64,000 nt of DNA from Ruditapes philippinarum (taxonomy: Eukaryota): the NCBI RefSeq assembly GCF_026571515.1, contig NW_026865856.1, positions 62,001-126,000 on the forward strand, given 5' to 3'. Both the position numbers and the translations under genes were made by a program. Positions 4,773-45,400 of this stretch are shown here, one piece after another (the first letter of the stretch is position 1; each line of letters starts with the position of its first letter). Below the pieces are notes generated by a model. It made no database searches and was not told the DNA's origin. It saw nothing but the letters and a program-made list of their open reading frames with translations.

Positions 4773-7700
4773 CTACAACATAAGTTTTGCGAGTGTAACC
4801 ATAGCAACTGTTGCCAACAATGATACAGAGATTGCTGAGGCACCTTGGGCTTCGAAAGATGGACAATTCATGGCCCCTTGACACTCCATTGTTTCTGAAA
4901 TAAAAGTGAAAAAATATGAATAAAGTTAAACTAGATTTGTTTCAATATCCAATCCAAACTAGTTACAATGATGAACTCTGATGTGATACATGAAGTAAAA
5001 TGAAAGCGACATTCATAATTAATGATTTTCAAAGTCTGAAGGAACTTTATATACAACATGTAAGATATATTTTGCCCTGATGATAGAGAAGAGAAACTGG
5101 TCAGCATTATATTAAAATGACAAAATCGGTTATTTTCTAATATTATTTTTCTTGTTCCTGCACGTTTTTTGTCATTTAATTATACATGTATATACAATAT
5201 ATACGTTGGCACACATTATTTTCATCCTTGATTCTTTTTATAGACAAAACATATTTCTTAAGTAAATTACAGGAGGTAACCCTTGCCATGCTGTATCTGT
5301 GTGAAAGACTTGACCTACTTCAAATTTAAATTTGTCAAGTTTTGAATATGCAGGATTTCAAAACCAAAATGAGACAGTCAACTGTATAGAGCCTGATACG
5401 TAGTACATGGATATGCTATTATTGCATGCTGGTCAGACTCAAAGCCTGTGACAGAGACAAATTTTACAGACAGTAAACAATCGTAACAGACAGTAAACAC
5501 TTGTATGGTTAAGAAATTAACCAAAATTTATCAATAGCCTATATCATACACAAGAAAACAATAAAAAGAGGACAACTTAATAAGAAGCACAATTTATAAA
5601 CTTTCCAAAAAGCTCAATAATTGTGTGTCTGTCTTCTCCAATTCTGTTTCTTGCCACACAGTATTATTTGGTGTAATCGTTTGCCTCCACGTTTTTAATT
5701 CGGAGCACATACCAGGCTTCTTTGAAACGTAATGTCGTCGTGGCAATGAGTTTTGTTATTTCATATTTCTCATTGTCATTTAACTGCATTAATTGCGTGT
5801 TTCCTTCACTCCTGGTCGGTTCTTTGTACCACAACACTTCCGGCTCAGGATAACCTGTTAGTATACAACAAAACATAACCATATAAAATACATTAAAATT
5901 GTCCCTTGTTACTACTTAACTATATATTACTTTTAAAATCATTTTTAAACTTGATTCAATTAGATTAGTCACAAGTAATAAAGAATAAAAATAACTAATG
6001 AAAAATATCGAATAGATATAAATTTTAATGAAGTCTATTTAAATTGATTTTATCCCCTTATAAAATTCACATGACGATGATGTCATACCAATAACATTGA
6101 GATGGTAAATGTTATAATTTAATCGTTTATAAAATTACTTAATAAAAAGTTAACTTCTTTATCTTAAATTCTTCTCAAAATCATTGTTGAATGTAACCCC
6201 TATAAATACAAAGCTGTCCTTCAGACAAACATAAAAAACTTAATCTTGCATTAATATTTCTTGTGTTTCTGTGACAATTTAGTTGAACACAATACTGTTA
6301 CACCACGATTAATCATCCTCTGTTGATTAAAATTGAGAAGTTGTCAGATACTTGTAAAGAAAACAATGGAAGCACTGCTAAAAAATTGAAAAACATGATA
6401 GATATGCGTTTAATACAAAAATATCAGAAAGAAATAATACGGACAGGTACTGAAATAAGCAAAGTATTTTAAATATTTACCTGATACTCGACACTCTTAA
6501 CTTAGCATCAAACTGTCAAATCAAATTTTGAGCTTGCCCGACAGTATCTTGCACAGCAAGTGTCTCATGTTTGAAGAAGACACTTAGTGAGACAAGATAT
6601 ACATCTGGCGGCCTGACCTGGTTATCTGCAATACATTTATACAGCCCTCGGTCTTCCTTTGTTACATTCTTTAAAGGTAATGTGGTGTTCTGAAATAATT
6701 GCATACCAAAAATAGATAAATCATGCCAAAAAGCAAATATCATATTGATATAAGACTTTAAGTGTTAAAAGAAAGGGAAGATGAAAATTATACATGTTTC
6801 TTCCTTAATATTATCATATATCTATATAATAATGTTGACTTCAATTAAATTACCATTACATTCAATTCTTGAACTGTCGGGGACAACAAAATTAATCCTC
6901 AGTATTACCCAGGTTGTCCCTTAACCTGTATGGACAAGCGGAAATTGTCGATAATTTACTATATAAATATCGTATGGACAATTTAAGAAATGCGCAAGAT
7001 AAAATGAGCAAGTAAGCCAAAGTCAGACCCATCGATCTATATGAAATCTTATAATAATTAATAAATTTTACAAACAAAATCAAATAATTCAACAAGTATC
7101 ATGTCAATCAAGTAAACCAACCCTTAGTTGAGCGGCATCTAATCCAGGAAGAAGTCCTCCGTCTGACCGGATCCACGTTATATTTGGAGCGGGTACGCCT
7201 GTCGCAGAACATTCAAGGTTGTGAGAGAGTGACCCATGTCCAGTTGTAACACTGCCACGTTGTTACTGGTAATAGTTGGCGGAACTTAAATATGATAAAA
7301 TTAGTTAAGAAATATTAATATCACAATAAAAAAGAGGGTCAGATTTAACCCAAATTAACATTTCATTTATATATATGCGGATTTGAAGCACCTGCAGCAT
7401 CTTATATAATAAGGTACTGACATACTTCAACCAAACCAATCAATAACTATATGAATTAATATTAAACTACATAAATTAATTAATATTATTGTTTTATTCA
7501 AATGAAGAATTAATTCAATTAGTCAACATATGCAATTATATGTAGATTAATTTGTCAATATTTGCAATATTATTACAGACTAGTATAGCAATTAAGAAGA
7601 GGTCAAAGACATTTTATTCATTTATATCTAAGCCAGTCAAGTTGACAACTATATGCATAATTTCTACACAAAGATCTATTCTGTACATTTATATCTTAAT

Positions 7701-8031
7701 ACCAGATCAATTGATGTACAATTTCTACATAAAGATCTAAATGATGAATAATTACATATAATATAATTTACATTTACCTTGGACAATAAGATGCCCTATT
7801 TTTGAAGGCCATGATGCCGGACCTCTGATTTGAATACATGTATTACATTTATAGTAACCATAATCAACGACAGTTAATCACCAACATGTACGTTATACGC
7901 TTGTTGAATTCTAGCTTTACTGTATCGTACTTCTTCGAGCCCTCTTCACATACTTTGCTTTCAACAAATATGTTTTCATCAGTGGTAATAATTTCACCAC
8001 CGGACTTGGAATCTAAAAATGCCCAAATTAC
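4773..8031 (-). pseudogene. Lachesin-like gene A copy A1, disabled (exons 3-7 only)
   Basis: Exons 7778-8031 (net -2 nt), 7122-7284 (+2 nt), 6481-6689 (in-frame TGA and +1 nt), 5606-5854 (TAT>TAA at 5664-5666; donor GT>GA), 4773-4894 (+3 nt). Coding exons 1-2 are absent: the intron-2 donor (~8587) is joined almost directly to the promoter fragment at 8591-8610. Confidence 0.9.
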
Positions 8032-8610
8032 CTGGAAGGAAAAATGGCTATCTCAAAAATGTTATCATAATAATATTGTATAGTTATTCATATTACATGA
8101 GATTGTGCAGTTAATCACTCGATCACAAATGCCGCAAATGGCAAAAGGAAATGGAAGTGACGAAACATATACTTAATTTACAAAACAATAGTTTATACTT
8201 GTAATCAAAGTATTATGTCAAAATAACACGAGCATTTCATACATCAAAACATAATCTATACAGTATTTCATTTAATAACTAATTTTGTGGACAGTGCACA
8301 AGAGTTGGATTCTAAATACATAAAAATACATGTAACATTTTTGTAAACTTTACAAATGTATATCATTTAATATATTCTATAATACAGTGATCAACACATA
8401 ATTATGATCGCAAATCAAGACAGATAACTCATGCCTTTTCATTCAATATTCCTTTGTAATTGTCACAGTTCATATCTACTCTGTGGCAGTGTTTTTGAGT
8501 GTATACTCATTGTAAATATTCACATTAAGAGAGTATGTTAGGCTGTTTGACTCTGAGTATTGATGAGTAGTAATTATTCATACTTACATTACTTGTTTGT
8601 GTCACCTGTA

Positions 8611-11600
8611 TTGTTTGATTTTATTTACCTGTCAAATAATGATTATACGGTCTATGCACATGATCAATTAATTTTCGATCATTTCCGTAAGATTTCCGAC
8701 AACTTGCTATCAATAAGAGGTGTATATATGTTTAATGTGTGTGAACCAAATTCAACCAAATTATAATCAATTCAATTTAGTTTAATTAAGTAAAATGAAA
8801 TACAAAACAGTGGTCAAAATCTATCACTAAATTTCGCTCGCGGTGTCTGTGCTGCTGTCAGAATCCGAGCTGCTGTCATCAGCCAAATTTATCTTCTTCT
8901 TCTTCTTCTTCTCGTTCACCGCTATAATCTCAGACCTGCCACATCGATGCATGTTGCCGTCTTCTGCAGTTCCTCCATTGCGCCGTGTAGTTTCGTTTGT
9001 ATCCCGGTCTCATGTGGCCACACGGCTCTTCTCTGTTGTTCCAGGAGAGGACATTGTTGTAGGAGATGTTCAGCTGTTTGGTTGTCACGTCCACAAGAGC
9101 ACTTAGGAGAGGCAGCTAGTTTTAGTTTGAACATATGTGCGTTCAGCCATTTATGACCTGTGCGAAGCCTAAAGATAGTTACTTGCTCCTTCCTGTCCAG
9201 GTAGTGGTAGTCATCCTTGTTTGACTGGCACCTCATTGCTGCTTTGATGGTTGTGGTCTTCTCATTGTAGCTGATGTGGTTCATGGGCTGATCACCTTCC
9301 GCTCCTAGCTTTGCCAGTTCATCAGCCTTTTCATTTCCAGGGATGCCGCAATGTGCGGGGATCCACTGGAATGCTATTTGTCTGGTTTGTGACATGCGAG
9401 AAAGCACTTCTGATAGTTCAGGCAGCTGGTGGTGTTCTAGGGCCTGTAGTGCCGACAGAGCATCATTTAATATGACGATCTGTGGGCAGTCCTCTGGAGA
9501 CTCTTCAATCACTCTCAGAGCTGTCTTGATGGCTTCATACTCTGCCTTGTAGTTGGTACAGTATTTCCCCGTTGCTACACTGTGTCACTCCTACCATTGT
9601 TATGTTGGACGTAGATGCCACCTCCCCCATCTTTGATAGCTGCTGTAGCTGAGCCATCTGTATAGATATGGGTCCATGGCTCTTTGGGGTACTCACCAGC
9701 TATCATTGCGAGTGTGAGTGCCTTTTTGGTGACATCATCTTTTGTACTTGGATGGAGTAGTGGCACAGTCGTATTAATATGGGTGTTTGACAGTTCTTGA
9801 ATCCATGGGGTTTGCAGGTCAGATTTATCAAGTGGTATAATAGAAGGACCAAGATTTTCAGCATATGTTCTAGTCAGTTTGTTGGCCTCGTGTACAAAGC
9901 TATCTCTGCGCAGACGATCTTTTGTCAGTCCTTGTAACTTTTGTGTCATTGGGTGGTCTGGCAGGAACTCATATTTGCTGGCTTGTACAAGTCCTTTTCA
10001 TCTCTTCTATGACTGAGTGGTGGAATCGTTGTAAGGTTTTCCATAGCCTTGATTGGATGAATTTCATTGCTCCTGTAATTACACGTAAGGCTTGGTTTTG
10101 GACCTTGTCGAGCACATTCTGGTTTGTCTTTGACGTAGTTATCCAAGCTAAGGATCCATATTCTAGATGGGGCCTAATTGTGCCTTGGTATACTGTCTTT
10201 AGTATTTCCTCATTTGCTCCCCCAGTTGGTACCCGCCAGTTTCCAGAGTATAGCTAGCTTTTTCCGGGCCTTGGTTTCAGCATATGCTACATGGGGCTTC
10301 CATGTCAGCCGATTGACAAAGGTCACACCGAGGTAGGTAGCCTCTTCCACTTCAGTAAGAGTTGTGCCACTGACTTAGATGTTTCCAGCTTTCTGTTTTG
10401 GTGACAGTGTGAACAGTGTGGTACATGATTTATCTGTATTCACCTGTACACACGACTTATCTGCTCATGCTGATAGCTGGTCGGCAGCTTGTTGCATCCA
10501 GTAGGTGGCAGTCGTGGCATGTTCTTCTGAACACCATAGGACAAGGTCGTCTGCATAGAGTGCTGCTTTGATACCTCTTGCTAGATCGGACACCAGATCA
10601 TTTATAAAGATGAGAAAGAGAGTGGGCGACAGGACACCACCTTGAGGGACACCATGTCTCTGTAGGAATTTTTGGCTGGTGGCCCCGCCGGTTCTGACTC
10701 GTGCTCTTCTGTTAAACAGAAACGACTTGACCAACTTGTACATTGTGCCTACAATGCCATTCCTCTGTAGCTTGACCAGCAGACCGTCTGTCCATACCTT
10801 GTCAAATGCTTTCTGGAGGTCGATCCATGTGACTTCTTTTCTTGAAAAGCCTCCTAAATTTCTTGGGCAAGGTATGTTGTTTGGTCTTCAGTAGACCTGA
10901 ACTGCCTGAAGCCAGCCTGTTGGTTAGCTAGAAGTTGGTTGTATTCCAGATACCACTTAAGACGCTGGTTCACAATCCTCTCCATTGTCTTACATACAAC
11001 ACTGGTGAGACTGATGGGGCGATAGCTTGATGCCTTATTTCGATCCTTGCCCGCTTTATGAATGGGGATCATGGTCGTCTCTCTCCATATTTGTGGGAGT
11101 TGTCCTTCTCTCCAGGTGAAGTTGTATATTTCCAGGAGTTTGCCCGTTGCAAGGCAGCCCAATTGTATGAGCATCTCGTTTGTGATGCCATCTTGACATG
11201 GTGACTTCTTAGTTTGAGCTGACGTAGAGCAGCATGAAGCACACTAAGGGTGAGCTCCTTCTCCATGACTTCCTCCTTGGCTTTCCCTGTTGTCCTCTCT
11301 CCTTCCTCTCTTCTGACCTCTCTCAATCTTTCCCTGCTGTTGTGAATGTTGCTTATTCCTCATAATTGTCAGCGAATTTGTTTGCTGCCTGTTTGCCTGT
11401 CAGCAGGGAATCACCCTCTATCAACGAAGTTGTGCCTCTTTCACTACCTGCTTCACCATTCATCTGCTTGGTGAGCTTCCACAACTTAGTGCCGTCCTTT
11501 TCTAGGTTTAGAGATTTAGTTTTCTCTCTGCAGGATGTTCGCCTGGCCTGAATCTTTGCTTTGAGGAACTTGGCCTTAGCTTGTTGCAGATTGTTGTTGT

Positions 11601-13939
11601 TTTCAAGGGCTGGGTTAGAATCTGCCTCCCTCCTGGCTTCTGATAGATTGTTCTGGAGTCCTTCTAAGTCCTCATTCCAGCATGGCTTATAATTCTTCCT
11701 GGCACCCCGAGGTATGCACTTATGGGCAGCTTTAAGAGTGGCAGCGTTGAAGTCCTTAATGCCTTTATTGACGTCTCTGCCATCTACTCTAATGTCTCTG
11801 CAGAGATCATCAGTGAGTCTGCCTTCTTGTAGTTCCATCGAGGGAAATTGGACTCTGTTCTGACCTTGCACTGTATGGTGAGATAAACTGGGTGGTGGTC
11901 GCTTCCGCCTTATTGTTCACCTACTTCCCTGGTGACATTGCTGTGAATGTCTTCTGTATAGAAGGCCAGATCAGGTGTGGATGTGGAATGCCAACGTCTG
12001 GAGTAGAATGTTGGATGGTCGTCAGGGTCATTTATCTGGATCAGAATCAGGTTATACTCATCCTGCCAGGTATCAACCGCCTCTCCGCGCCTGTCCATAT
12101 GGTCATATCCCCAGCTCTGGGAATGGCTGTTGAAGTCACCAACAACAAGGTAATTTGTGTCCTCTGGATCGATAGTGTCCAAGGATAGAGCTCTGTCATT
12201 TGGTGAGTAGAGGTTTACAACATGTATCACCCAATCGCTCAGTCTAAGGCACAAAACATGAAATGAGCATTGTTTTTGTGCTGCTCAACAACCGCGTCTA
12301 CATGTTTGCAAGCACTCAGCCATCTGTCCGCACCAATCTCTTCAAATGCATCATTAGTAATCTTCTGAAAATCCCCGAATCTGAACTATAAAAATTTGTG
12401 AAAATTAGTTTTGAACTGTTAAAAATGTATTGTCATATTCGCAAGTTTTATATTAATATAAAACTTTACTAACCTAAATGTAGTATTTCTTTTACGAATA
12501 ATGTCTTTAAGCTGGCTCCAAATGATCTCTATTGCATTAAAACCGGGATGATACGGAGGCAGCCTCAGAATTTCATGGCCGTTTTCTCTAACGAGTTAGT
12601 CAATGGCGTATGTTGGAGGAGGTCTATTCATCCGTGCCAACTCTAGAAGCTGTGCACGAAACAAGGAGTCATTGAAAGAGATATTGTGTCTTTGTAGCCA
12701 GATCTGGAAATATAAAACAGCAAAGATATCAATTTACGAAAAAACATATACATGTATACAGCAAGTGATTATTTTATTGATCAATGTATAAAGGACTAGC
12801 TACCTTAATATCCTCTTTCCGAGTGTTCGATGTGGGGCATCTCTATGTCTGGACGGAATGATAACTGGCATTATCCATCACTATGGCACACGGGCAGTCA
12901 AGGTTTGGTATGCACTGGGTCTACATCCATTTCTTTTCGCCGTTGATTTCTCAATGGTAATTCCCTGTGCTTGATGAGGCTTTATGAATAGGTTGATCTC
13001 TAGGAACAAATCCATCTGTCGATCTTGCATGCAAAACTATCAACATCTGTCCTTTATTACACGGCATAAATACCCTGGTTTGTTTGGTCCTTGCCAGCAT
13101 CGTTTTGCACAATATGCAGAGTCAACCCAAGTTTTGTCCACATACACTAGTTTAAATCCTAGATCTTCTAGTTCTTTCTTCCTCATATAGTATGAAAACC
13201 TCTGTGATACAATAGACGGCTACAAGTACTTTCCTGTCGTTTGAAGTTCTCTTCCAACGCAAGCCCAACTGCCTAACTACTTTCCTCAAAGTTTATATAC
13301 TTCCAGGAAAATTAATGTCCGTTTTCAGTACTGTGTGGGGGTTTCTTAGTGTTGGCAGCTGTCGACGTACCGTATAAACTCATGGATCTGGTTCCTGATT
13401 AAAGTTGTGTCAAAGTCATCTAGAGGTTTATAATCTCCTCTCTGAGACCGCTGTAGAGATTTCAATGGTCCTTTGTGTTCCTTTCTAATTCTATATACAG
13501 TCCTAGTACTAACCCCGGTCGTCCGAGCAGTGCGCTCGATGCACGACCCGTTGTCTTCCTTTGGTTGCTTTAGAAAGTAATTTTATACATTTATAACAAT
13601 CTGTTTAGCTTTCGAGCCAAGATGGCTAAGATTGTTCAGGCATGCTTAAGCAAAATCCCCATATATGTAATATAACACCCTCGTAATGAGAGTTTTTATC
13701 GTGAATCCCGTGAATACTAGTTTACACAAATGTTTGTTTTCCGACAAAATACATGTATGCCGCAAAAAGAAGAAAATAAAGACTTATTGTACTAAAAGCA
13801 ATCGTGACTTTTCAAAACATGAATTGCATATTAGAAATTAATTCTCGTAATCTATACGGACAGAACCGAAGTGAATTTGATTATTTAAATGAGTTATATA
13901 ATGTATTCATTATTGACAGGGCAATAAATCACGTGACTA
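8611..13939 (-). mobile_element. IS630-Tc1-mariner DNA transposon, DD81E (Sailor-like), decayed, with nested LINE
   Basis: TA duplication (8609-8610 / 13940-13941) splits the A promoter sequence gtcacctgTAtcacgtgac; imperfect TIRs (tgattttatttacctgtcaaataatga versus rc tgatttattgccctgtcaataatga). Transposase motifs on - strand: RTARTTGVSTRTVYRI, VYVDKTW (~13136), IVMDNASYHS (~12873), LRLPPYHPGFNAIEIIW (~12527); acidic tail INLADDSSSDSD at ~8830-8892. Confidence 0.85.
8893..12260 (-). mobile_element. Non-LTR retrotransposon (I-group, Ingi/I-like): APE + RT + RNase H, 5'-truncated and frameshifted
   Basis: Fragmented ORFs: GDFNSHS..PDLAF (endonuclease), YRPISLTS..QAGFR, GVPQGGVLSPTLF..YADDLV (RT), YTDGSA and QWIPAHCGIPGNEKADELAK (RNase H), CSCG..HLLQQCP; (GAA)n 3' tail at 8893-8912; GC-rich relative to flanks. 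The 5' boundary is approximate. Confidence 0.92.
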
Positions 13940-20990: not shown

Positions 20991-23900
20991 ATGTTTAAAA
21001 GTTGCTGGATCATTGCTGCTGTTGTCGCAGTTCACCTGATCGGCACAGGTATTTTCCTTGTGAAATCAAAATGGCGCTCATGATATGAAAATGTAACTCA
21101 CAAGCAGAATAAGCGACTGATGCCAGTATTGGAAAACTTTGACAGCTCTCTTTCTTTATGCCCCAACAATGTGGGAGCATGTAGCGTTGCACTTGTCCGT
21201 CCGTACGTCCCGAAATCTTGTGAACGCAACTCCTCTTAAACCGGATGGCAGATTTTGCTTAAATTTACAGGGATGAACAACCTTAATGTGTAGATGGAAG
21301 TAAAGGAAGGAAATTTTGCTGCGACCAAATTTAACAGAATTATGGCCCTTTGTTGATTTTTTCACTATATACTATGTAGAAATTTTGTGAACGCAACTCC
21401 TCTTAAACCGGATGGCAGATTTTGCTTAAACTTACAGGGATGAACAACCTTAATGTGTAGATGGTAGTAAAGGAAGGAATTTTTGCTGCGATTAAATTTA
21501 ACAGAATTATGGCCCTTTATTGACTTTTCACTATATACTATGTAGAAATTTTGTGAACGCAACTCCTCTTAAACCGGATGGCAGATTTTGTTTAAACTTC
21601 CAGGAATGAACAACCTTAATGTGTAGATGGTAGTAAAATAAGGAATTTTTGCTGCGACCAAATTTAACAGAATTATGGCCCTTTGTTGATTTTTTCACTA
21701 TATACTATGTAGAAATTTTGTGAACGCAAGTCCTCTTAAACCGGATGGCAGATTTTGCTTAAACTTCCAGGGATGAACAACCTTAATGTGTAGATGATAG
21801 TAAAGGAAGGAATTTTCGCTGCGACCACATTTAACAGAATTATGGCCCTTTGTTGATTTTTTCACTATATACTATGTAGAAATTTTGTGAACGCAACTCC
21901 TCTTAAACCAGATGGCAGATTTTGCTTAAACTTCCAGGGATTAACAACCTAAATGTGTAGATGGTAGTAAAGGAATGAATTTTTGCTGCGACCAAATTTA
22001 ACAGAATTATGGCCCTTTGTTGATTTTTAGTTTTCAACTTGTGGCACATGTAGTCCAAAAAATATTTGACCTAGACTCATAAGATTGACAGAACAGTGGC
22101 GTGTGGGGGCATCCGTGTCCTATGGACACATTTCTAGTTTTTGTTATATAATGAAAATGTTCGTTGAAAACCTAGTAGAAAACAATTTAGATAAACTTTT
22201 AATAACTTCTAAAAAACCTTTAACAAATGAAGAAAATATGAAGCTGATTATTTACATAAATTGCTAATACAGATTAACTTAAATGTACTGAATGGGGATC
22301 AAGATACTTTACTACCTAGACTTGCCAAATCTAGATATTCTGAGACATTTTTATTCTGGGTCAGAAGCTGGCTCTTTGCCCACAATAATTAGTGCATTAC
22401 AATAAGTTGGGTAAAGAGTCAACTCGGCCCTATATCAACGGGTCAACTCGGCACATGTCAACTCAGCCCACTTATGAGGAAAAAAACATATTAAACGTAT
22501 TAACTTTTATATTACTGTACTTGCATGTTATCAAGGCAAGTAGTTTCAAATGAAAAATAAGAGATATCTGGTATATTTTTGTTATAACCTCCTCACAGTG
22601 ATTACCTCCCTTGGCAGCATTGTACTGATAATGGGAGATCTCTGCGTAGGAGATGATATTATTTTATAACTGTACATAGTACTTCTGTAGAATTAAAGTA
22701 TATTTAGAAGAAATTTGTTTCGTTTCTTCTTGCAGATTCGTAAAAAAATTAGTTTTTAGTTTTTTTTGTAAAGTAATCTTCACTAAAATATCAAATACGT
22801 CACTTATTATTATAAAATATTTTTAAATGTTCTTTATCTTATATACATAAAACAACATGTAATGCATTTATTAACATGCAATGTATTTTGCAATGTCACA
22901 AGGATGAATTATAATAAGTTTTTATTACCCAAATCATTGAAAACTCTTTCATTACCAAAAATGTAGTAATAATTTATGAAAACATCTTTCCACGTTTGTA
23001 AATAAGTCCATATATTAATTATTTGGTTCCAACAATAGTGATAAAACCAATATATCAATAAATTGAAAAGTGGGCCGAGTTGACCAGTGCCAATGCTGGA
23101 ATAGAACCGAACTGACTCTGGGGGCCGAGTATATTTTAGGGCCGAGCTAACCCTGATTCATTAGTTGGACTATTCACTCCCAAACCAAAGAAATTGTGAG
23201 CCAGAACATTTAATTATATATACAACAGTCACAGAGTTAATATTGAATATAAATCAACCTTTTATTATTTGTTTATTTTGTTCCTTTTAATAATTTCTGA
23301 TAAAATGTGTACCAATTTTATTATTTTGTTTTACAGTAAAATGTCAGCTGGACCCAGAGATTGTAGATGAGATTATACCAGAAGTTACATCACAGGGCGG
23401 ACAGGCAAAACTTAACTGTACTGTGGTAAATAAGCAGGATGCTCATACTGTAAGTATAAATAATTATTACTTATTAATATTCAGAGTCAAACAGTCTAAT
23501 AAACTCTCTTAATGTAAATATTTACAATGAGAATACACTCAAGAACATTGCCTCAGAGTTGATATGAACTGCGTAAATTACAAAGAAATATTGAATGAAA
23601 AGGCATGAGTTATCTGTCTTGTTTTGCGATCATAATTATATGTTGATCACTGTATTCTAGAATATGTTAACGATATACATTTGTAAAGTTTACAAACATG
23701 TTACATGTATTTTATATGTATTTAGAATCCAACTCTTGTGCACTGTCCACTAAATTAGTTATTAATTGAAATAATGTATAGATGATGTTTAGATGTATGA
23801 AATGCTCGTGTTATTTTGACATAATACTTCGATTACATGTATTAACTATTGTTTTGTAAATTAAGTATATGTTTCGTCACTTCCATTCCCTTTTTGCGCA

Positions 23901-26900
23901 TTTTTGATCGAGTGATTAACTGCACAATCTCATGTTGTATGAAATAACTATACAATATTATTATGATAACATTTTTGAGATAGCCATTTTTCCTTCCAGG
24001 TAATTTGGGCATTTTTAGATTCCAAGTCCGGTGGTGAAATTATTACCACTGATGAAAACATATTTGTTGAAAACAAAGTTTGTAAAGAGGGCTCAAAGAA
24101 GTACGGTATAGTAAAGCGTGAATTCAAGAAGCGTATAACGTACATGTTGGTGATTAACTGTTTAGAAGTCGTGGATTATGGTTACTATAAATGTTATATT
24201 CAAATCAGAGGCTCGGCATCATGGCCTTCAAAAATAGGGCATCTTATTGTCCAAGGTAAATGTAAATTATATGTAAATTATTCATCATTTAGATCTTTAT
24301 GTAGAAGTTGTACATCAATTTATCTGGTATTAAGATATAAATGTACAGAATAGATCTTTGTGTAGAAATTGTGCATATAGTTGTCAACTTGACTGGCTTA
24401 GATATAAATGAATAAATTGTCTTTGACCTCTTCTTAATTACTAGACTAGTCTGTAATAATATTGCAAATATTGACAAATTAATCTACATATAATTGCATA
24501 TGTTGACTAATTGAATTAATTGTTCATTTAAATAAAACAATAATGTTAATTAAGTTATGTGTTTTAATATTAATTCATGTAGTTATTAATTGGTTTGGTT
24601 GAAGTATGTCAGTACCTTATTATATATGATGCTGCAGGTGCTTTAAATCAGTATACATGTATATATAAATGAAATGTTAATTTGAGTTAAATCTGCCACT
24701 CTTGTTTATTGTGATATTAATATTTCTTAACTAATTTTATCATATTTAAGTTCCGCCAACTATTACCAGCAAGAACGTGGCAGTGTTACAGCTGGACGTG
24801 GGTCACTCTCACAACCTTGAATGTTCTGCGACAGGCGTACCCGCTCCAAATATAACGTGGATCCGGTCAGACGGAGGACTTCTTCCTGGATTAGATGCCG
24901 CTCAACTAAGGGTAGGTTCACTTGATTGACATGATACTTGTTGAATTATTTGATTTTGTTTGTAAAAATTATTAATTATTATAAGATTTCATATAGATCG
25001 ATTTTTATTGACCTTATTGATTGCCTCATAATTTTGAGATATAGACACACATTTCATAATTTATCACTGTTGATAATTTTTACCACCTATAACATTCAGT
25101 CAAATTTTTATATATAGTATAACATACTAGTATAGTAGAAACAAAATGTTCTCAGTAAATGATTGTCCATATTCTCCTGTGTAATATATCACTTGATAGA
25201 TCTTGTCTAACAGTTCAAGGGTCTGACTTTGGCTTACTTGCTCATTTTATCTTGCGCATTTCTTAAATTGTCCATACGATATTTATATAGTAAATTATCG
25301 ACAATTTCCGCTTGCCCATACAGGTTGTGGGGCAACCTGGGTAATACTGAGGATTAATTTTGCTGTCCCCGACAGTTCAAGAATTAAATGTAATGGTAAT
25401 TTTAAATTGAGGTAAACATTATTATATAGATATAGGATAATATTAAGGAAGAAACATGTATAATTTTAATCTTCCCTTTCTTTTAACACTTATAGTCTTA
25501 TATCAATATAATATTTGCTTTTTGGCATGATTTATCTATTTTTGGTATGCAATTATTTCAGAACACCACATTACCTTTAAAGAATGTAACAAAGGAAGAC
25601 CGAGGGCTGTATAAATGTATTGCAGATAACCAGGTCAGGCCGCCAGATGTATATCTTGTCTCACTAAGCGTCTTCTTCAAACCTGAGACACTTGCTGTGC
25701 AAGATACTGTCGGGCAAGCTCAAAATAGACAGTTTGATGCTAAGCTAGAGTGTCGAGTATCAGGTAAATATTTAAAATAGTTTGCTTATTTCAGTACCTG
25801 TCCGTATCATTTCTTTCTGATATTTTTATATTAAATACATACCTATCATGTTTTTCAATTTTTTAGCAGTGCTTCCCTTGTTTTCTTTACAAGTATCTGA
25901 CAAATTCTCCATTTTAATCAACAGAGGATGATTAATCGTGGTGTAACAGTATTGTCTTCAACTAAATTGTCACAGATATACAAGAAATATTAATGCAAGA
26001 TATAGTTTTTTATGTTTCTCTGAAGGACAGCTTTGTATTTATAGGGGTTACATTCAACAATGTTTTTGAGAAAATTCTGGAAACAAAGTGAAACATTAAT
26101 CACAACAAAATAACATAAGAATTGCAGACTCGGTTTGATTGAGTCTGTACATGAGGGATAGTGAATAAGTGCAACATCACTCACGCCCCCTAGCACCGGC
26201 TTGAGCGGTACTCAATTCTCAACACTTTATAGTGAAGAATTTAATATAAAGAGGTTATATTGTTCTATACTAACAGGTTATCCTGAGCCGGAAGTGGTGT
26301 GGTACAAAGAGCCGACCAGAAGTGAAGGAAACACGCAATTAATACAGCTAAATGACAATGAGAAATATGAAATAACAAAACTCATTGCCACAACGACATT
26401 ACGTTTCCAAGAAGCCTGGTATGTGCTCCGAATTAAAAACGTGGAAGCAAACGATTACACCAAATATTACTGTGTGGCAAGAAACAGAATTGGAGAAAAC
26501 AGACACACAATTATTGAGCTTTTTGGTAAATTTATAAATTGTGCTTCTTAAGTTTTCTTATTATTGTTTTCTTGTGTATGTTATAGGCTATGGATAAATT
26601 TTGGTTAATTTCTTAAACATACAAATGTTTATTGTCTGTAACAAGTGTTAACTGTCTGTACCGATTGTTTACTGTCTGTAAAACTTGTCTCTGTCACAGG
26701 CTTTGAGCCTGACCAGCATGCAATAATAGCATATCCATTTACTGCGTATCAGGCTCTATACAGTTGACTGTCTCATTTTTGGTTTTGAAATCCTGCATAT
26801 TCAAAACTTGACAAATTTAAATTTGAACTAGTCTTTCACACAGATAAATCATGGCAAGGACTATTGCCTGAAATATGTTTTGTCTATAAAAAGAATCAAG

Positions 26901-27370
26901 GATGAAAATGATGTGTGCCAAGGTATATATTGCATATACATGTATACTTAAATGACAAAAACGTGCAAGAACAAGAAAAATAATATTAAAAAAATAACCG
27001 ACATTAACTGATTTTTGTCATTTTAATATAATGCTGACCAGTTTCTCTTCTCTATCATCAGGGCAAAATATATATTATATAAAGTTCCTTCAGACTTTGA
27101 AAATCATTAATTATGAATGTCTTTACGTCCAGTAAGCTTTCATTTTACTACATGTATCACATCAGAGTTCAGCAGTGTAAATAGTTTGGATTGGATATTG
27201 AAAAAAATCTAGTTTAACTTTATTTCATTTTTTTGTTCACTTTTATTTCAGAAACAATGGAGTGTCAAGGGGCCAATTGTCCATCTTTCGAAGCCCAAGG
27301 TGCCTCAGCAATCTCTGTATCATTGTTGGCAACAGTTGCTATGGTTACACTCGCAAAACTTATGTTGTAG
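20991..27370 (+). CDS. Lachesin/IgLON-like GPI-anchored 3-Ig cell adhesion protein, gene A copy A2 (intact, 7 exons, 385 aa)
   Basis: Exons 20991-21048, 23337-23449, 24000-24255, 24751-24911, 25562-25763, 26277-26525, 27252-27370; all GT-AG with compatible phases, 1158 nt open frame. Signal peptide MFKSCWIIAAVVAVHLIGTVKC; Ig motifs LNCTV..VIW..DYGYYKC, LECSATGVPAPNITW..DRGLYKCIADN, LECRVSGYPEPEVVWYK..DYTKYYCVARN; lachesin-like LFETMECQGANCP then a hydrophobic C-terminal GPI signal. Confidence 0.92.
21155..22138 (+). mobile_element. Non-autonomous Helentron/HINE (pearl-like) element with ~5 tandem 166-167 bp repeats, in A2 intron 1
   Basis: Starts TTTATGCCCC, GTCC microsatellite, units begin at 21219, 21386, 21552, 21719, 21886; ends GGGGGCAT + hairpin GTGTCC-TAT-GGACAC + CTAGT in a T-run; empty site in A3 (~32675) and A4. 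Confidence 0.85.
22411..23159. mobile_element. MITE with reiterated GTCAACTCGGCCC subterminal motifs in A2 intron 1
   Basis: Three GTCAACTCGGC-type motifs at the left, inverted GGGCCGAG(TTGAC) motifs at the right; candidate 9-bp duplication ataagttgg / attagttgg. Confidence 0.6.
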
Positions 27371-32516: not shown

Positions 32517-33292
32517 ATGTTTAAAAGTTGCTGGATCATTGCTGCTGTTGTCGCAGTTCACCTGTTCGGCACAGGTATTTTCCTTGTGAAATCAAAATGG
32601 CGATCATGACATAAAAATGTAACCCACAAACAGAATAAGCGACTGATGCCAGTAATTGAAAACTTTGACAGCTCTCTTTCTTTTTTGTTATATAATGAAA
32701 ACGTTCTTGGAAAACTTAGTGGAAAACAATTTAGATAAACTTTTATTAACTTCTGAAAAAAAACCTTTTACAAATGAAGAAAATATGAAGCTGATTATTT
32801 ACATAAATTGCTAATACAAATTAACTTAAATGTACTGAATGGGGATCAAGACACTTCACTACCTAGACTTGCCAAATCTAGATATTCTGAGACATTTTTT
32901 TTTTCTGGATCAGAAGCTGGCTACATAATATAGGTATTGCAGCCGAAATATTGAGACTATTCAATCGAGCCTAGAGACACTTCACCCCGCAAATTTTGAA
33001 AACAATTCACACATCAACAGACACTTCAGCCCCAACATTCATAACACACTTTACCCATCATATGTTGTTTTTTCTAGAGTAAATATTGAACATAAATCAA
33101 CCTTTCATTATTTCTTTTTTTTTTTCCTTTTAATAATTTCTAATAAAATGTGTACCAATTTTATTATTTTGTTTTACAGTAAAATGTCAGCTGGACCCAG
33201 AGATTGTAGATGAGATTATACCAGAAGTGACATCACAGGGCGGACAGGCAAAACTTAACTGTACTGTGGTAAATAAGCAGGATGCTCATACT
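32517..33292 (+). pseudogene. Truncated gene A copy A3 (promoter, exon 1, exon 2, part of intron 2)
   Basis: Exon 1 32517-32574 (MFKSCWIIAAVVAVHLFGT) and exon 2 33180-33292 are open with intact splice sites; homology to A stops at ~33780 and no exons 3-7 follow on this strand. Confidence 0.85.
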
Positions 33293-34736
33293 GTATGTAT
33301 AAATAATCATTACTCATCAATACTCAGAGTCAAACAGTCTAATAAACTCTCTTAATGTGAATATTTACAATAAGAATACATTCAAAACATTGCCTCAGAG
33401 TAGATATGAACTGCGTAAATTACAAAGGAATATTTGAATGAAAAGGTATGAGTTATCTGTCTTGATTTGCGATCATAATTATATGTTGATCACTGTATTC
33501 TAGAATATGTTAATGATATACATTTGTATAGTTTACATTCATGTTACATGTATTTTATATGTATTTAGAACCCAACTCTTGTGCACTGTCCACTAAATTA
33601 GTTATTAATTGAAATAATGTATAGATTAATATATGTTTAGATGTATGAAATGCTCGTGTTATTTTTACATAATACTTTGATTACATGTATTAACTATTGT
33701 TTTGTAAATTAAGTATATGTTCGTCACTTCCATTGCTTTTTGCCATTTGCGGCATTTGTGATCAAGTGATAAACTGCAAGACCTCTACAATTCAAAGATA
33801 GGATATTTAGGCTACTTGAATTCATCTAAAACGTATATTTGAAAAAGAAAAAATACATGTTTCAAGGAAGGTAATGTGAAAAAACACAAACAAATAAATA
33901 AATCATTCATGCATACATAAACAGATGCATACAAACATACATATATACAAAATAAACACAGAAAGAACAATTGTTCCCAGTATAAAACTTGAGAAAAATA
34001 GATAAATCACTTATACATTGGATATATTTTTTATTTTGTTTAAATGCAAAAATGTGAGAGTAAAATGAATCCATATGGCTGGACTATTCTTCGTTTTCTT
34101 TTGTGTATAAACAAGCGCTTGAAAGACACTGTCTTCTTTTAACCAGAATAATTTAGTTTATAGCTTAAATTTAAAAAAAAAATGAAAAATCGAGCTAAAC
34201 TTAAGATAAAAGCGTCTTATATTTTCTTAGAAGCTTACATCTATTTCTTAGAAAAATAAAAAATAAAAAGAACAATGGTAGACGAATTACTGGGAATAAA
34301 AAAACACACACAGAAAAATACAATTTGATCTGTTGTACTTTAACACAAGAAAGTTTCATTGTGGAAAAAAAAGAGAACAGTTCCCCCAAACCACTAGATA
34401 TTAATTTTGGACATCATATGTATTTAAGCATACATTAAATGCTAAGTGGTGATTCCTGCAAGGCATAATATGCACTATTATAAAAACTGACTTCTAAGTA
34501 TTTATTCATTTATTATGTACTGCATGAATAGAGTGAAGGAGAAAAACAAAAACAAAACTTTTTAAAGCACAATGAATAGTATATCATTAAATTAAAGTTA
34601 TATTGAAATGGACATCAAAGTAATGTCTTTGCGAAAAAGCGAAAAACAAAACGAAACAGAAAAGATCATTACAGAGAGATTGTAAAAAAAACAAACGTGT
34701 TTATACATACGGATAAAAATTCTACCTTTGTGATTA

Positions 34737-39470: not shown

Positions 39471-42400
39471 CTACAACATAAGTTTTGCGAGTGTAACCAT
39501 AGCAACTGTTGCCAACAACGATACAGAGATTGCTGAGGCACCTTGGGCTTCGAAAGATGGACAATTGGCCCCTTGACACTCCATTGTTTCTGAAATAAAA
39601 GTGAACTGCTGAACTCTGATGTGATACATGTAGTAAAAGGAAAGCTTACTGGAAGTAAAGACATTCATAATTAATGATTTCCAAAGTCAGAAGGAACTTT
39701 ATATGATGTATATTTTGCCCCCGATAAATAGAAACCGGTCGGCATTATATTAAAATCAGTAAATGTCAGATATTTTTTTGTGTAATTTTTCTTGTTTGGC
39801 ACTTAATTATCATTTATATATACATGACATTGTATATGTTATACATAATTAATGATAATTTGACACAAATTATTTTCATCCTCAATTCATTTTCTGTATA
39901 GACAATACATAAATTTTAAGTGAATTAAACGTAACCCTTGCCATGCTGCATTTGTGTGAAAGTCTTGGCCTACTTTGAATTTAAACTTACTCAGTTTTAA
40001 ATTTGCAGGATGAGACGGTCAACTGTATAGAGCCTGATACGCAGTACATGGATATGCTATTATTGCACGCTGGTCAGACTCAAAGCCTGTGATCCAAACA
40101 AATTTTTTAGCCACCAGTAAATACTCTTAACGGTTACGAAATAAATCAAATGTTTACCATAGCCTATAACATACACAAGAAAACAATAAAAAGAATACAA
40201 CTCAAGAAGCACAATTAATAAAAACTTACCAAAAAGCTCAATGATTGTTTGTCTGTCTTCTCCAATTCTGTTTCTTGCCACACAGTAATATTTAGTGTAA
40301 TCGTTTGCCTCCACATTTTTAATTCGGAGCACATACCAGGCTTCTTGGAAACGTAATGTTGTTGTGGCAATGAGTTTTGTTATTTCATATTTCTCATTGT
40401 CATTTAGCTGCATTAATTGCGTGTTTCCTTCACTTCTGGTCGGTTCTTTGTACCACACCACTTCTGGCTCAGGATAACCTGTGAGTATGGGACAAAATAT
40501 AACCTACTTAAATACATAGAAAATTGTTCCTTAATATGTTAGTAGTAATCACAGGAAAAAATTTAAATAACTTTTTATGCATGATTCCTTCAAATAAAAA
40601 AAAATCATGTAATATGAAAGAGTTACACCAATATCATTAGTATTTTGAATAATTCCATCTCCTCATATGTTTCATGTCATACCAATTACATAGAATATAA
40701 TTTGTAAAACTACCAAGTTTTGGTTCAAGACAAACTTACAAAACTAAATATCTTGTACATTTTTTTTCTGTGACAATTTACTTGAAGACATTATACTGTA
40801 ACATCCCCTATTGATTAAAGTGGAGAAGTTGTCAAATACTTGTAAAGAATACAAGTAAGAACAGGGACAGAATTAGAAAACATATGATAGATATGTATTT
40901 AATAGAAAAATATAAGAAAGAAATTTTACAAACTGGTAAACTGAATATGAGCAAGCTGTCTTAAATACTTACCGGACACTCGACACTCTAACTTAGCATC
41001 AAACTGTCTATTTTGAGCCTGACCGACAGTATCTTGTACAGCAAGTGTCTCAGGTTTGAAGAAGACGCTTAGTGAGACGAGATATACATCTGGCGGCCTG
41101 ACCTGATTATCCGCAATACATTTATAAAGCCCTCGGTCTTCCTTTGTTACATTCTTTAAAGGTAATACAGTGTTCTGAAACAAAAACATATCAAAAATAG
41201 ATCAATTATGCCAAAAGCAATTATTATATTGATTTAAGTGTTACAAAACATGGAAGATAAAAATTATACTATTAAATGGCTTTATTTCTTTTCTTTATAT
41301 CATTCTATATATATACATAATAGCCTCAAATTACCATAACATTAAATTCTTTAACTGTCAGGGATGACAAAATCAATTGTCAGTATTGGGCAAATGAAAA
41401 TTTTCAATAATTTACTATATAAGTATCATACAGACAAGTAAAGAAATGCTCCAGATAAAAATGGACAAGTAAAATTTAACATAGGATTTCGCCACCCCTT
41501 GAAGATTCACACAAGATCTATCAAGTGATAATGTAACATATCACTTCAAAGGAGAATATGGACAATTATTTTACTAAGAACATTATTTTTCTACTACCAG
41601 TAAATTATTTTTTATATATATATAAATTTGACCGTTAGAATGTTACAGGTGGTTAAAATTATCAACAGTGATAAAAATAAAGTTTATGTCGATCTCTCGG
41701 CTCAAAATTACGAACCAATCAATAAAGACAATAAAAATAAAAAAAGAAATCTTATAATAGTATATTTCACAAAAGAAAACAACAAATTAATCAACATGTA
41801 TCCTTTCAATCAAGGAACCTACCCTTAGTTGAGCGCCATCAAATCCAGGAAGAAGTCCTCCATCTGACCGTACCCACGTTATATTTGGAGCGGGTACGCC
41901 TGTCGCAGAACATTCAAGGTTGTGAGAGTGACCCACGTCCAGCTGTAACACTGCAACGTTCTTACTGGTAATAGTTGGTGGAACTTAAATACGGTATGAT
42001 TAAATTAATCAAGAAATATTCTTATCACAATTAAGGTATTAGCACCCTAATGCATTACCTCCGCTTTGAAGAGTATTCAAATAGGCTAGAATTACTGTTA
42101 ACTACATTGAAAATGAGGGCCATGGGTTCAATCCCCAGAAGGGTCAACTTTTTTTTTTCTTTCTTTTTTTCTTTTAACATTATTTATGTATCTCTCATGT
42201 CCCATATGGAAAGAAAAAAGTGTTTAATTTTGAATTTTTAATTTATATAGGTATTTATTGGCTAAATTATGCTAAATCTAGTAATAAATATGGTACCTGA
42301 TATTTTCAAAGTGTAATATAATCAAAACTAGACGGTAAAAGTATTTCATATTTTACAAGATCAACCAATATACTTTTTTAAAAATTTAGGGAAACTTTGA

Positions 42401-45400
42401 AAACAGGCACTCATTTGGGTAAATTTTAAGAATGTTTCTATTTAGGCTCCTTAAGTAGAAAAATGGTCAGACATGAGGTAAAAATGGGTGGGGCAGGGTA
42501 ACATTTTTATACAGATTTCATAAATTTTAAGTAGAAATCATAATTTTGCTTATGTGGATTGTTAGCTGAATGTTACTATTTGTTTCTTACCAAAAATTCA
42601 TGGGAAAACATTTTTCATTAGAATGTTATTGCAGATTATTTAAAGGTTCCTCATTTCTAAAAAAGGGCCCTCATAACATCCTAGCTTGAGTTCAGAAAAG
42701 TGGCCATAACTTGATTTCCGTACGGTAAACTTTGTTTAAATTTTGCATACAGGTGTACTTTAAGGTATACATCTGACCTATGATGTCAATTCTTTAGTTC
42801 CTGATAGTGCCCATTAGGGTCCTAATACCTTAACAAGAGTGTCGGATTTAACCAAGCTTTATCAAAATTATTAATTAAATTATTTTCATTTATATATACT
42901 GATTTGAAGCTCCTGTAACTTCATATAAATAATAAGGCACTGACATAATTCAACTAATTAAAGTAACTAAATTATATCATAAAATAATTAACACATTATT
43001 GTTATATTAATATAAATATTTTAACAATTATTTCAACTGGTCAACATTTGCAATTATATGTAGATTAATTTGTCAATATTTGCAATATTATTACAGACTA
43101 GTAGAACAATTAGGCTAAGCAGAGGTCAAAGACATTTTATTCATTTATATCTAAGCCAGTCAAGTTGACAACTAAACACAAAGATCTATTCTGTACATTT
43201 ATATCTTAATACCAGATAAATTGATGTACAACTTCTACATAAAGATCTAACTGATGAATAATTACATATAAATAACATTTACCTTGGACAATAAGATGTC
43301 CTATTTTTGAAGGCCATGATGCCGAGCCAGTGCCTCTGATTTGAATGTAACATTTGTAATAACCATAATCCACCACTTCTAAACAGTTTATCACCAACAT
43401 GTATGTTATACGCTTGTTGAATTCACGCTTTGCTAACTCGTACTTCTTTGAGCCCTCTTTACATACTTTGTTTTCAACAAATATGTTTTCATCGTTGGTA
43501 ATAATTTCACCACCGGACTTTGAATCTAAAAATGTCCAAATTACCTGCAACACAAAATGGCTTAAATGAGTAGCAATAATAAATAGAATCTCCAAAATGT
43601 TATCATAATAATATACAAGTTATCTCATATTACATGAATTTTCACAGTAAATCACTAGATCATCAATGCTGCAAGTGTCAAAAAGGAATGGAAGTGACAA
43701 AACAATAGTTAATACTCATATTAGTCATAATCAAAGTATTATGTCAAAATAGCATGCTCGAGCTTTTCATATGTATCTTAACATTATAAATCTATACATT
43801 AATGATTATTTCAATTAATAACTAATTTAGTGGACAATGCACAAGAGTTGGATTCTAAATACATATAAAATGCATGTAACATGTTTGTAAACTTTACAAA
43901 TGTATATCCTTAACATATTCTAGAATACAGTGATCAGCACATAAGGTGGATTTTACACGCGATTCAGGACAGATAACTCTTGGTTTTCATTCCATATTAC
44001 TTTTTTATCAATTTACACAGTTCATATCGGCACTGTTTATGGATGTTACTTATTTAAGTTCTCATTATAAATATTCACATAAAGAAAGTATGGACTGTAA
44101 GTATACTGTATCAATGAGTTATACTTACAGTATGACCATCCTGCTTATTTACCACAGTACAGTTAAGTTTTGCCTGTCCACCCTGTGATGTAACTTCTGG
44201 TATGATCTCATCTACAATCTCTGGGTCCAGCTGACATTTTACTGAAAAACAAAATAATAAAATTGGTACAAATTTTATCAGAAATTATTAAAAGGAAAAA
44301 AATAAAGAAATAATAAAATGTTGATTTATGTTCATTATTTACTTTAGAAAAAACAACGTATGATGGGTAAAGTGTGTTATACCCCGGTCACATATTCACG
44401 GAATACGCCCACGGAAGAGCCACAGATTTATTCCGGCATCGTCCGTAGCTACCCGTACTGGTCAGTAGCTTTCCGTACTGTAACTGTAATCAAACATAGT
44501 AGTCCTTGTTTATCCGTAGCAATCCTTGACAATTTTTGAACATACACAAAAATTTGCTATGGAAAAATCAACCGTAGCGTATCCCTGCTAGTCCGTATTA
44601 AACCGTACTGATACGTACTGGTCTGTGCGAAAACCTTACCAATCCGTACTGATTCGTAGTCCACCAACTTGCCAAGGATTTCCACGGTTTGGTACGGAGA
44701 ACTACGTATTTGTACGGTTACCCTATGTATAAGCTACGGTTTAATACAGATTAATACGGCATTGTCATGGAAAGCCACGATCATAATACGTTGTACTATG
44801 GAGAGGCAGGGATTAGCACGGTCTTATACGGTTTATTGCGTTGCAACAGGAAATGGTACGGAATGGTACGGTCCACCACTGTTTATAGTACGAATGAAGT
44901 AAGTATCATGTACTTTTTCAGGGTATAAATACTACCTTCTTGTTAAAACAGACATATTTGCGGGAACATTCAATAAATGATAATTGACATTTACTGCAAC
45001 TTTATATTGAAATGGCTCAGAATGCGGAGGCAGTGGTCGATCTGCTTGATGACATGCATAGAGGTTAAAATGTATTAACATCGTACTACAATTCATAATA
45101 AATTGATTAACATTTACTGTTACATATTTCAAGTGTCTCATAAGCCTCGGACGCTGGCCCTTGAGTGATATTAAGATTAATTAACAAGCTTTTTACATAT
45201 TTTTAAAACATAAACATTCACGATAATTAATGTAATTGTAAAATAAACAGCAAATTTAAAAATTAAAAGAGAAGCAGTATTGATCAACGTTTTTCCTTAA
45301 TGATTACTAGTCCATATCTAATCAGGTAAGAGAAGACAGACGAGATGGTGGACTAGAGATGTGCTTTTACGAAGACCGCTTCATGTTTAGTATGAGGCTA

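What the first reader, a model, noticed from the sequence alone, without database searches (positions are those of the whole stretch)
24085..24225. Variable patch in Ig1 distinguishes the A copies
Exon 3 reads KKYGIVKREFKK (A2), KKYELAKREFNK (A4) and KKYDTVKLEFNK (A1); a second site reads IRGSAS / IRGTGSAS / IRGPAS. By my hand count A2 versus A4 has about 8 amino-acid-changing events in exons 2-3 (~123 aa) against about 7 in the remaining ~260 aa, and exons 1 and 7 encode identical peptides. Clustered replacements in the membrane-distal domain suggest diversifying binding specificity. A1 is a pseudogene, so some of its changes may be neutral.
Basis: partly seen in the sequence, partly recalled or inferred. 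Interest (0 to 1): 0.7.

Follow-up and report, generated by a model that had tools for sequence, protein, structure and literature searches.

The report
Duplicated clam adhesion gene, drifting patch
A clam has locally duplicated a normally very conserved cell-adhesion gene, and its copies differ most in one eight-residue surface patch that is predicted to lie away from the family's usual binding face, which most likely reflects loosened constraint after duplication, though selection by an outside binder such as a parasite is not excluded.

Summary
The sequences are as described. The locus is a Ruditapes-specific duplication of a lachesin/amalgam-like three-Ig (Wirin-like) gene: two intact copies (A2, A4), one broken copy (A1) and one two-exon stub (A3). 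The narrow patch (codons 93-100) is nevertheless a real cluster. Public contigs add more types (GIVKREFK, DIVKLEFN, DIVKREFS, ELAKREFN), giving 7 of 9 exon-3 replacements in 8 of 85 codons (scan p=9e-5; 0.005-0.065 on a conservative tally), where other venerid clams keep EIVKREFN. Local dN/dS is about 1.7, not distinguishable from 1 (p=0.11-0.17). In the predicted fold the patch is strand D and the D-E turn, on the sheet opposite the GFCC'C'' face that Wirins use to bind each other, so it probably does not tune adhesion specificity. The second site, a 2-residue F-G loop deletion, is closer to that face, and a Mercenaria second copy also shortens this loop. Best reading: relaxed constraint plus sequence exchange between copies. 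Selection by an outside ligand remains possible.

The parts
20991..27370 (+). Copy A2: intact 7-exon gene, 385 aa (exons 20991-21048, 23337-23449, 24000-24255, 24751-24911, 25562-25763, 26277-26525, 27252-27370); signal peptide, three Ig domains, hydrophobic C-terminal tail
   Evidence: GT-AG exon edges and open frame; the database protein P0009 'lachesin-like' shows the same sequence; four of the six splice joints are among the listed RNA joints
24105..24128 (+). Variable patch, codons 93-100 of A2 (GIVKREFK); predicted strand D and D-E turn of Ig1
24204..24221 (+). F-G loop site of A2, 6 nt shorter than in A4 and in single-copy orthologs
39471..46573 (-). Copy A4: intact 7-exon gene, 387 aa, the more ancestral-like copy (exons 46573-46516, 44241-44129, 43544-43283, 41983-41823, 41174-40973, 40478-40230, 39589-39471)
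   Evidence: the database protein P0007 shows the same sequence; polarised with outgroups
43416..43439 (-). Variable patch of A4, codons 93-100 (ELAKREFN); L94 and A95 are derived in A4
4776..8031 (-). Copy A1: exons 3-7 only; frameshifting indels in exons 3, 4 and 5 and a stop in exon 6 in this assembly
7900..7935 (-). Variable patch of A1 (KKYDTVKLEFNK); a decayed form of the DIVKLEFN type seen in 3 of 3 DNA runs laid
8592..13936 (-). 5.3-kb GC-richer segment standing where A1 exons 1-2 should be; holds an RNase H-bearing ORF (8922-9512), likely a retrotransposon
   Evidence: gap between self-alignments, composition, ORFs and Pfam PF00075 E=4.8e-8
32517..33778 (+). Copy A3: exons 1-2 and part of intron 2 only; shares derived A55 with A2

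Best explanation
The locus holds lineage-specific duplicates of a conserved lachesin-like three-Ig gene, and the variable patch is most likely a tolerant, predicted surface-exposed stretch (strand D and D-E turn of Ig1) that drifted once redundancy loosened selection, with likely sequence exchange between copies reshuffling the variants. Shown: the duplication, the gene models, purifying selection over the gene as a whole, the cluster of replacements, a longer A2 branch, and mosaic exon-3 contigs. Inferred: GPI anchoring, Ig1-Ig1 adhesion through the GFCC'C'' face as in DIPs and IgLONs, surface exposure of residues 93, 95, 97 and 100, and gene conversion as the cause of the mosaics.
For: A2/A4 dN/dS is 0.12 overall, 0.156 in exons 2-3, 0.10 in exons 4-6. 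With a Mercenaria transcript as outgroup, the A2 branch has 9 N/13 S changes (omega 0.21) and the A4 branch 5 N/16 S (0.096), against Ig1 dN 0.018/dS 0.95 between A4 and Mercenaria: constraint is looser than between orthologs but still purifying. A2's derived changes are spread over all three domains (55, 61, 93, 100, 180, 192, 286, 340). Two of the four copies are broken or truncated. The patch is strand E92-99 and the turn before E102-109 in a model of mean pLDDT 86, whose top Foldseek hits are DIP-theta, -eta and -alpha; these bind through GFCC'C''. The patch ranks 15th of 115 eight-residue Ig1 windows for variability across 24 relatives; position 94 is always aliphatic, so I94L is conservative, and D and G occur at 93 in relatives. 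Patch dN/dS 1.6-1.75 is compatible with 1 (P=0.11-0.17). One RNA-run contig carries the A4 patch amid six A2-type silent sites and one A1-type silent site.
Against: Plain relaxation does not predict that 7 of 9 exon-3 replacements fall in 8 of 85 codons while the rest of the exon stays at omega about 0.05 (scan p=9e-5; 0.005 if only 35 tolerant sites are allowed). On a conservative tally (5 of 7) p is 0.005, or 0.065 with 35 sites. The patch is invariant (EIVKREFN) in all 6 closest venerid-type rows of the alignment. The slower copy A4 also has two derived changes there. The A2-versus-A4 branch difference in N/S is not significant (p=0.33). Burial was inferred from alternation and conservation, not computed from coordinates.
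Confidence: 0.55

Rival explanations
1. The D-strand/D-E patch is under diversifying selection from a third-party binder (a parasite or microbe adhesin, or a cis partner) that docks on the face not used for adhesion, so copies and alleles vary there while keeping the adhesion face.
For: 7 N versus 1 S in the patch against 2 N versus 11 S in the rest of exon 3 (Fisher p=0.002, window chosen after seeing the data); three states at codon 93 and three at codon 100; silent changes are not enriched in the patch (1 per 5 sites vs 11 per 52), which argues against a mutation hotspot; both intact copies changed there. A mosquito Lachesin is reported to serve as a virus receptor through its first domain (10.64898/2026.07.28.741352, passages seen), so the family can be a pathogen target.
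Against: omega is not significantly above 1. The tally comes from 4 runs of unitigs read through a table that omits some sites; one type rests on a single contig of depth 8.3, and one belongs to the A1 lineage. Only about four types were seen, far fewer than in hypervariable immune receptors (general knowledge). No ligand is known. The clam gene's orthology to insect Lachesin was not tested.
Confidence: 0.27
2. The duplicates are diverging in adhesion specificity through the GFCC'C'' face, using T61A (strand C), N74T (end of C') and the F-G loop deletion rather than the highlighted patch.
For: These three changes sit on the A2 side and in or next to strands C, C' and F-G of the model. Mercenaria's second copy P0008 also has T74 and a 2-residue F-G loop deletion; 3 of its 5 differences fall at sites where A2 and A4 differ (hypergeometric p=0.009 among about 140 variable sites). 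A spliced contig with the deletion exists in one run (depth 177 vs 335 for the long form).
Against: Positions 74 and 129 are among the most variable Ig1 columns family-wide (entropy 3.3), A61 occurs in another ortholog, the two deletions are not identical, and the GGC-ACT-GGC micro-repeat favours slippage (sequence). L190 may be ancestral in Ruditapes. The P0008 locus could not be inspected.
Confidence: 0.12
3. A1, A2 and A4 are partly alleles or haplotypes placed side by side by the assembly, so the 'copy differences' are ordinary polymorphism.
For: Exon-3 contigs are mosaics of the reference copies; raw RNA reads share many non-A2 bases with both A1 and A4; only one copy per species was returned for most other clams.
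Against: A2 and A4 introns differ at 329 of 2676 aligned bases (12.3%), A1 and A2 at 121 of 2473 (4.9%); the copies lie in inverted and direct orientation in one 233-kb contig; run X5 holds three non-A4 patch types and X2 holds two plus an A4-type intron-2 contig (whether these runs are single animals is not on record).
Confidence: 0.06

Closest known systems
Mollusc 'lachesin-like / amalgam-like' three-Ig proteins (Mercenaria XP_045209937, Mya XP_052804259, Dreissena, Mactra; more distantly Littorina 'I-type lectin-like protein 3')
   Same: 92% identity to Mercenaria, 73-78% to Mactra, Mya and Dreissena, about 45% to oyster, mussel and snail proteins; same length and architecture
   Different: Four local copies here (two intact), with a burst of changes at codons 93-100 that the closest orthologs lack; these names are automatic annotations
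Wirin family: Drosophila DIPs, vertebrate IgLONs, Lachesin (PMC6525511)
   Same: Signal peptide, three Ig domains, hydrophobic tail; best structural matches are DIP-theta/eta/alpha, then NEGR1, OPCML and IgLON5
   Different: About 25% identity only; Ig1 has an extra cysteine pair (C85, C111) shared by clam orthologs; specificity residues of known Wirins lie on GFCC'C'', not on strand D; binding untested
Hypervariable invertebrate recognition Ig systems (Dscam isoforms, Hydractinia Alr, amphioxus VCBP; recalled, not from a call)
   Same: Variation concentrated in a short stretch of a membrane-distal Ig domain
   Different: Two intact copies 96% identical, gene-wide omega 0.12, about four patch types; no sign here of alternative exons or of a large allele series

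Membership tests
Wirin family (DIP/IgLON/Lachesin) | Signal peptide plus three Ig domains | tested here: met
   Model with three beta-sandwich segments and an N-terminal helix; Pfam Ig_3, I-set and V-set hits
Wirin family (DIP/IgLON/Lachesin) | Closest solved folds are DIPs and IgLONs | tested here: met
   Foldseek ranks 1-4 are DIPs (E 5e-27 to 3e-25), ranks 5-8 NEGR1/OPCML; among three-domain chains DIP-eta, -alpha and -theta score best by profile
Wirin family (DIP/IgLON/Lachesin) | GPI anchor, no cytoplasmic tail | tested here: inconclusive
   Sequence ends in a small-residue stretch and a hydrophobic helix 373-386 with no tail; no GPI predictor was run
Wirin family (DIP/IgLON/Lachesin) | Ig1-Ig1 binding through the GFCC'C'' face with a hydrophobic core | not testable with these tools
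   Needs a binding assay or a solved complex
Lachesin subfamily | Groups with insect Lachesin rather than DIP or Klingon in a phylogeny | not tested
Diversifying recognition receptors | dN/dS significantly above 1 at the variable sites | tested here: inconclusive
   Patch estimate 1.6-1.75, P=0.11-0.17 against 1; exons 2-3 0.156
Diversifying recognition receptors | Variable residues map to the known binding face | tested here: not met
   Patch is strand D and the D-E turn in the model; the known Wirin face is GFCC'C''. Model-based; the F-G loop site is adjacent to that face

The most novel reading that the evidence does not exclude
A conserved Wirin-type adhesion molecule has become a pathogen-contested receptor in the Manila clam: copy-number-variable duplicates, shuffled by gene conversion, diversify a back-face D-strand patch to evade a parasite or microbe binder while keeping the adhesion face, and venerid duplicates repeatedly shorten the F-G loop to retune self-binding.
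Probability: 0.2. Interest if true: 0.65.

Novelty: new member of a known kind. Interest (0 to 1): 0.3.

Why it matters
If the best reading holds, this is an ordinary birth-and-death duplication. If the patch is under selection, it would point to an unknown binder on the non-adhesive face of a Wirin-type protein in a farmed clam, and give a compact, testable marker (8 codons, about four types) for disease-association work. The parallel F-G loop shortening in Mercenaria would offer a natural test of how Wirin duplicates change self-recognition.

Tried and rejected
Domain-level enrichment in Ig1: not significant. Ancient shared duplication with Mercenaria: the protein tree groups A2 with A4 (99/97) and the two Mercenaria proteins together (90/81), so the duplications look independent, though concerted evolution could give the same tree. 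Mutation hotspot: silent changes are not enriched in the patch. Further copies: DNA search with exon 3 and protein search with exon 6 each gave 3 matches in the genome, all in this window; tblastn of three flanking 10-kb stretches gave no hit. Ig1 homodimer prediction gave no answer (score 0.00, alignment not used) and is not evidence either way. Pfam finds nothing for exon 3 alone. A PDB alignment of Ig1 to DIP interface residues was not obtained, as the printed alignments were other proteins. The reference A4 middle of exon 3 was not among the contigs of the 3 DNA runs laid; contigs can be filtered, so this is not evidence of absence. Raw RNA depth on exon 3 was too low to rank copies: 5 of 5 reads at 24106 and 5 of 5 at 24128 were non-A2 (X22, X24; X23 had none). 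Literature: 'lachesin + bivalve + immunoglobulin' and 'lachesin + Ruditapes' each returned 0 papers; searches listed nothing on this locus. Earlier scan notes: none. The last table (Ig2, Ig3 distances) failed on a math error and is not used.

Full report
What is there. The window is bases 62001-126000 of contig C14343 of a 1.41-Gb genome. Self-comparison shows one gene unit repeated in inverted and direct orientation. A2 (+, 20991-27370) and A4 (-, 46573-39471) have seven exons with GT-AG edges and open frames of 385 and 387 codons. Database proteins P0009 and P0007, labelled lachesin-like from Ruditapes philippinarum, show the same sequences. A1 (-) keeps exons 3-7 with frameshifting indels in exons 3, 4 and 5 and a stop in exon 6, and a 5.3-kb segment with an RNase H ORF stands where its exons 1-2 should be. 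A3 is exons 1-2 only. Two genome searches found 3 matches each, all in this window. A2 and A4 introns differ at 12.3% of aligned bases, A1 and A2 at 4.9%.

The observation. The Ig1-versus-rest contrast is weak: 8/123 vs 7/262 gives p=0.09, and p=0.27 once the invariant signal peptide and tail are left out. dN/dS is 0.156 for exons 2-3, 0.10 for exons 4-6 and 0.12 overall. The gene is under purifying selection in every exon that differs.

Polarity. Orthologs were found in Mercenaria (92-93%), Mactra, Mya and Dreissena. Against six outgroups A4 is the more ancestral copy. A2 is derived at 55, 61, 93, 100, 180, 192 and the F-G loop deletion; A4 is derived at 94, 95 and 338. With a Mercenaria transcript (L007) as nucleotide outgroup, A2 has 9 N/13 S changes and A4 5 N/16 S, with 9 ambiguous; the difference is not significant (p=0.33). 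Between A4 and Mercenaria, Ig1 shows 5 replacement and 44 silent differences, so both copies are evolving faster than orthologs do. The protein tree pairs A2 with A4 (branches 0.028 and 0.011) and the two Mercenaria proteins with each other.

The patch in other animals. I laid 4 of the 24 listed runs (three DNA-type, one RNA-type, four studies) on A4 exon 3 and decoded the variant table. Codons 93-100 read GIVKREFK (X2, X5), DIVKLEFN (X2, X5, X13), DIVKREFS (X5, one contig, depth 8.3) and ELAKREFN (X15); the closest venerid-type orthologs all read EIVKREFN. Leaving out changes private to the broken reference A1, exon 3 has 9 replacement changes, 7 of them in these 8 of 85 codons, and 12 silent changes, 1 of them in the patch. 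Scan p is 9e-5, 7e-4 if two A1-type changes outside the patch are added, and 0.005 if only 35 sites are assumed free to vary. Dropping the A1-lineage L97 and the low-depth S100 leaves 5 of 7, p=0.005 or 0.065. Patch omega is 1.6-1.75 and the rest of the exon about 0.05, but 7 observed against 4.0-4.3 expected under neutrality is not significant (P=0.11-0.17). Limits: the table omits some sites, unitigs are not phased, and the window was chosen after seeing the data. So the cluster is real; positive selection is not demonstrated.

Exchange between copies. The X15 contig across the patch has the A4 peptide but six A2-type and one A1-type silent bases around it. In raw RNA reads of X24, 12 of 12 reads carry A1-type bases at 24791 and 24798 in exon 4, and that run has reads across three listed splice joints. 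The A1 type is therefore probably not dead in every animal. Exons 1 and 7 show 1 silent difference in about 42 sites against 36 in about 230 elsewhere (p=0.024). These fit gene conversion or recombination among copies, which is inferred and not shown by phased reads.

Where the sites lie. The AlphaFold model of A4 (27-row alignment, mean pLDDT 86.4) has Ig1 strands at 43-50, 57-63, 70-74, 92-99, 102-109, 118-125 and 136 onward. The conserved C47, W60, L107 and D116-x-G-x-Y-x-C122 fix these as B, C, C', D, E, F and G by standard Ig anatomy. The patch is thus strand D plus the D-E turn, on the ABED sheet. Family conservation suggests Y92 and position 94 point inward and 93, 95, 97 and 100 are exposed (inferred, no coordinates were available). 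The best structural matches are DIPs and IgLONs. Passages of PMC6525511 and PMC6374074 state that these bind through the GFCC'C'' face. The highlighted patch is therefore predicted to be off the adhesion interface. The A2-side changes T61A, N74T and the F-G loop deletion are on or beside that face. Mercenaria's second copy also has T74 and a two-residue F-G loop deletion, but those columns are hypervariable family-wide and the deletions differ.

Mechanism. The protein likely works as a GPI-anchored Wirin-type adhesion molecule (inferred from architecture and fold). After local duplication in the Ruditapes lineage, redundancy loosened selection; some copies broke, A2 gathered scattered changes, and the tolerant D-strand surface took several replacements that were then shuffled among copies (0.55). 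The tightness of the cluster is not fully explained by this, which leaves selection by an outside binder on the back face as a serious rival (0.27). Retuned adhesion through the front face (0.12) and assembly artefact (0.06) are less likely.

Papers. PMC6525511, PMC6374074, PMC10084454 and 10.64898/2026.07.28.741352 were seen as passages only; the others only as search listings. Searches for this gene in bivalves or Ruditapes returned 0 papers in the held library, which omits most subscription journals.

Verdict. Observation confirmed; interpretation partly supported; a new member of a known kind with a real but unexplained local cluster. Interest 0.3.

Noticed in passing
window 21212-22028: 167-bp tandem repeat (about 5 copies) in A2 intron 1, absent from A3 and A4; similar sequence is abundant in RNA runs.
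   Followed up: no
window 26090-26234: About 145-bp element in A2 intron 5 that draws roughly 10,000-fold read depth per strand in two RNA runs, with reads running on unlike the locus; likely a high-copy SINE- or MITE-like repeat.
   Followed up: no
window 24081-24083 and 24159-24161 (A2 C85, C111): Extra cysteine pair in Ig1, kept in the clam orthologs and absent from more distant mollusc relatives; could form a second disulfide near the variable D-E hairpin.
   Followed up: no
window 20991-21048 and 27252-27370 vs 46573-46516 and 39589-39471: Exons 1 and 7 are almost identical between A2 and A4 even at silent sites, although signal peptides vary strongly among species; suggests recent conversion.
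   Followed up: partly
window 51888-52373: 21-bp minisatellite array.
   Followed up: no
window 50928-51014: Weak tblastn match to Ig2 (E=7e-4, 45% over 29 aa); perhaps an exon of another Ig gene.
   Followed up: no
L004 7415-9988: The stretch just left of the window matches the non-coding region at window 14-17 kb, mostly inverted, with no coding exon; a further remnant of the duplication.
   Followed up: partly
proteins P0001 and P0008: Mercenaria has two near-identical entries with the same longest contig length, differing mainly in Ig1 (T74, shortened F-G loop).
   Followed up: partly
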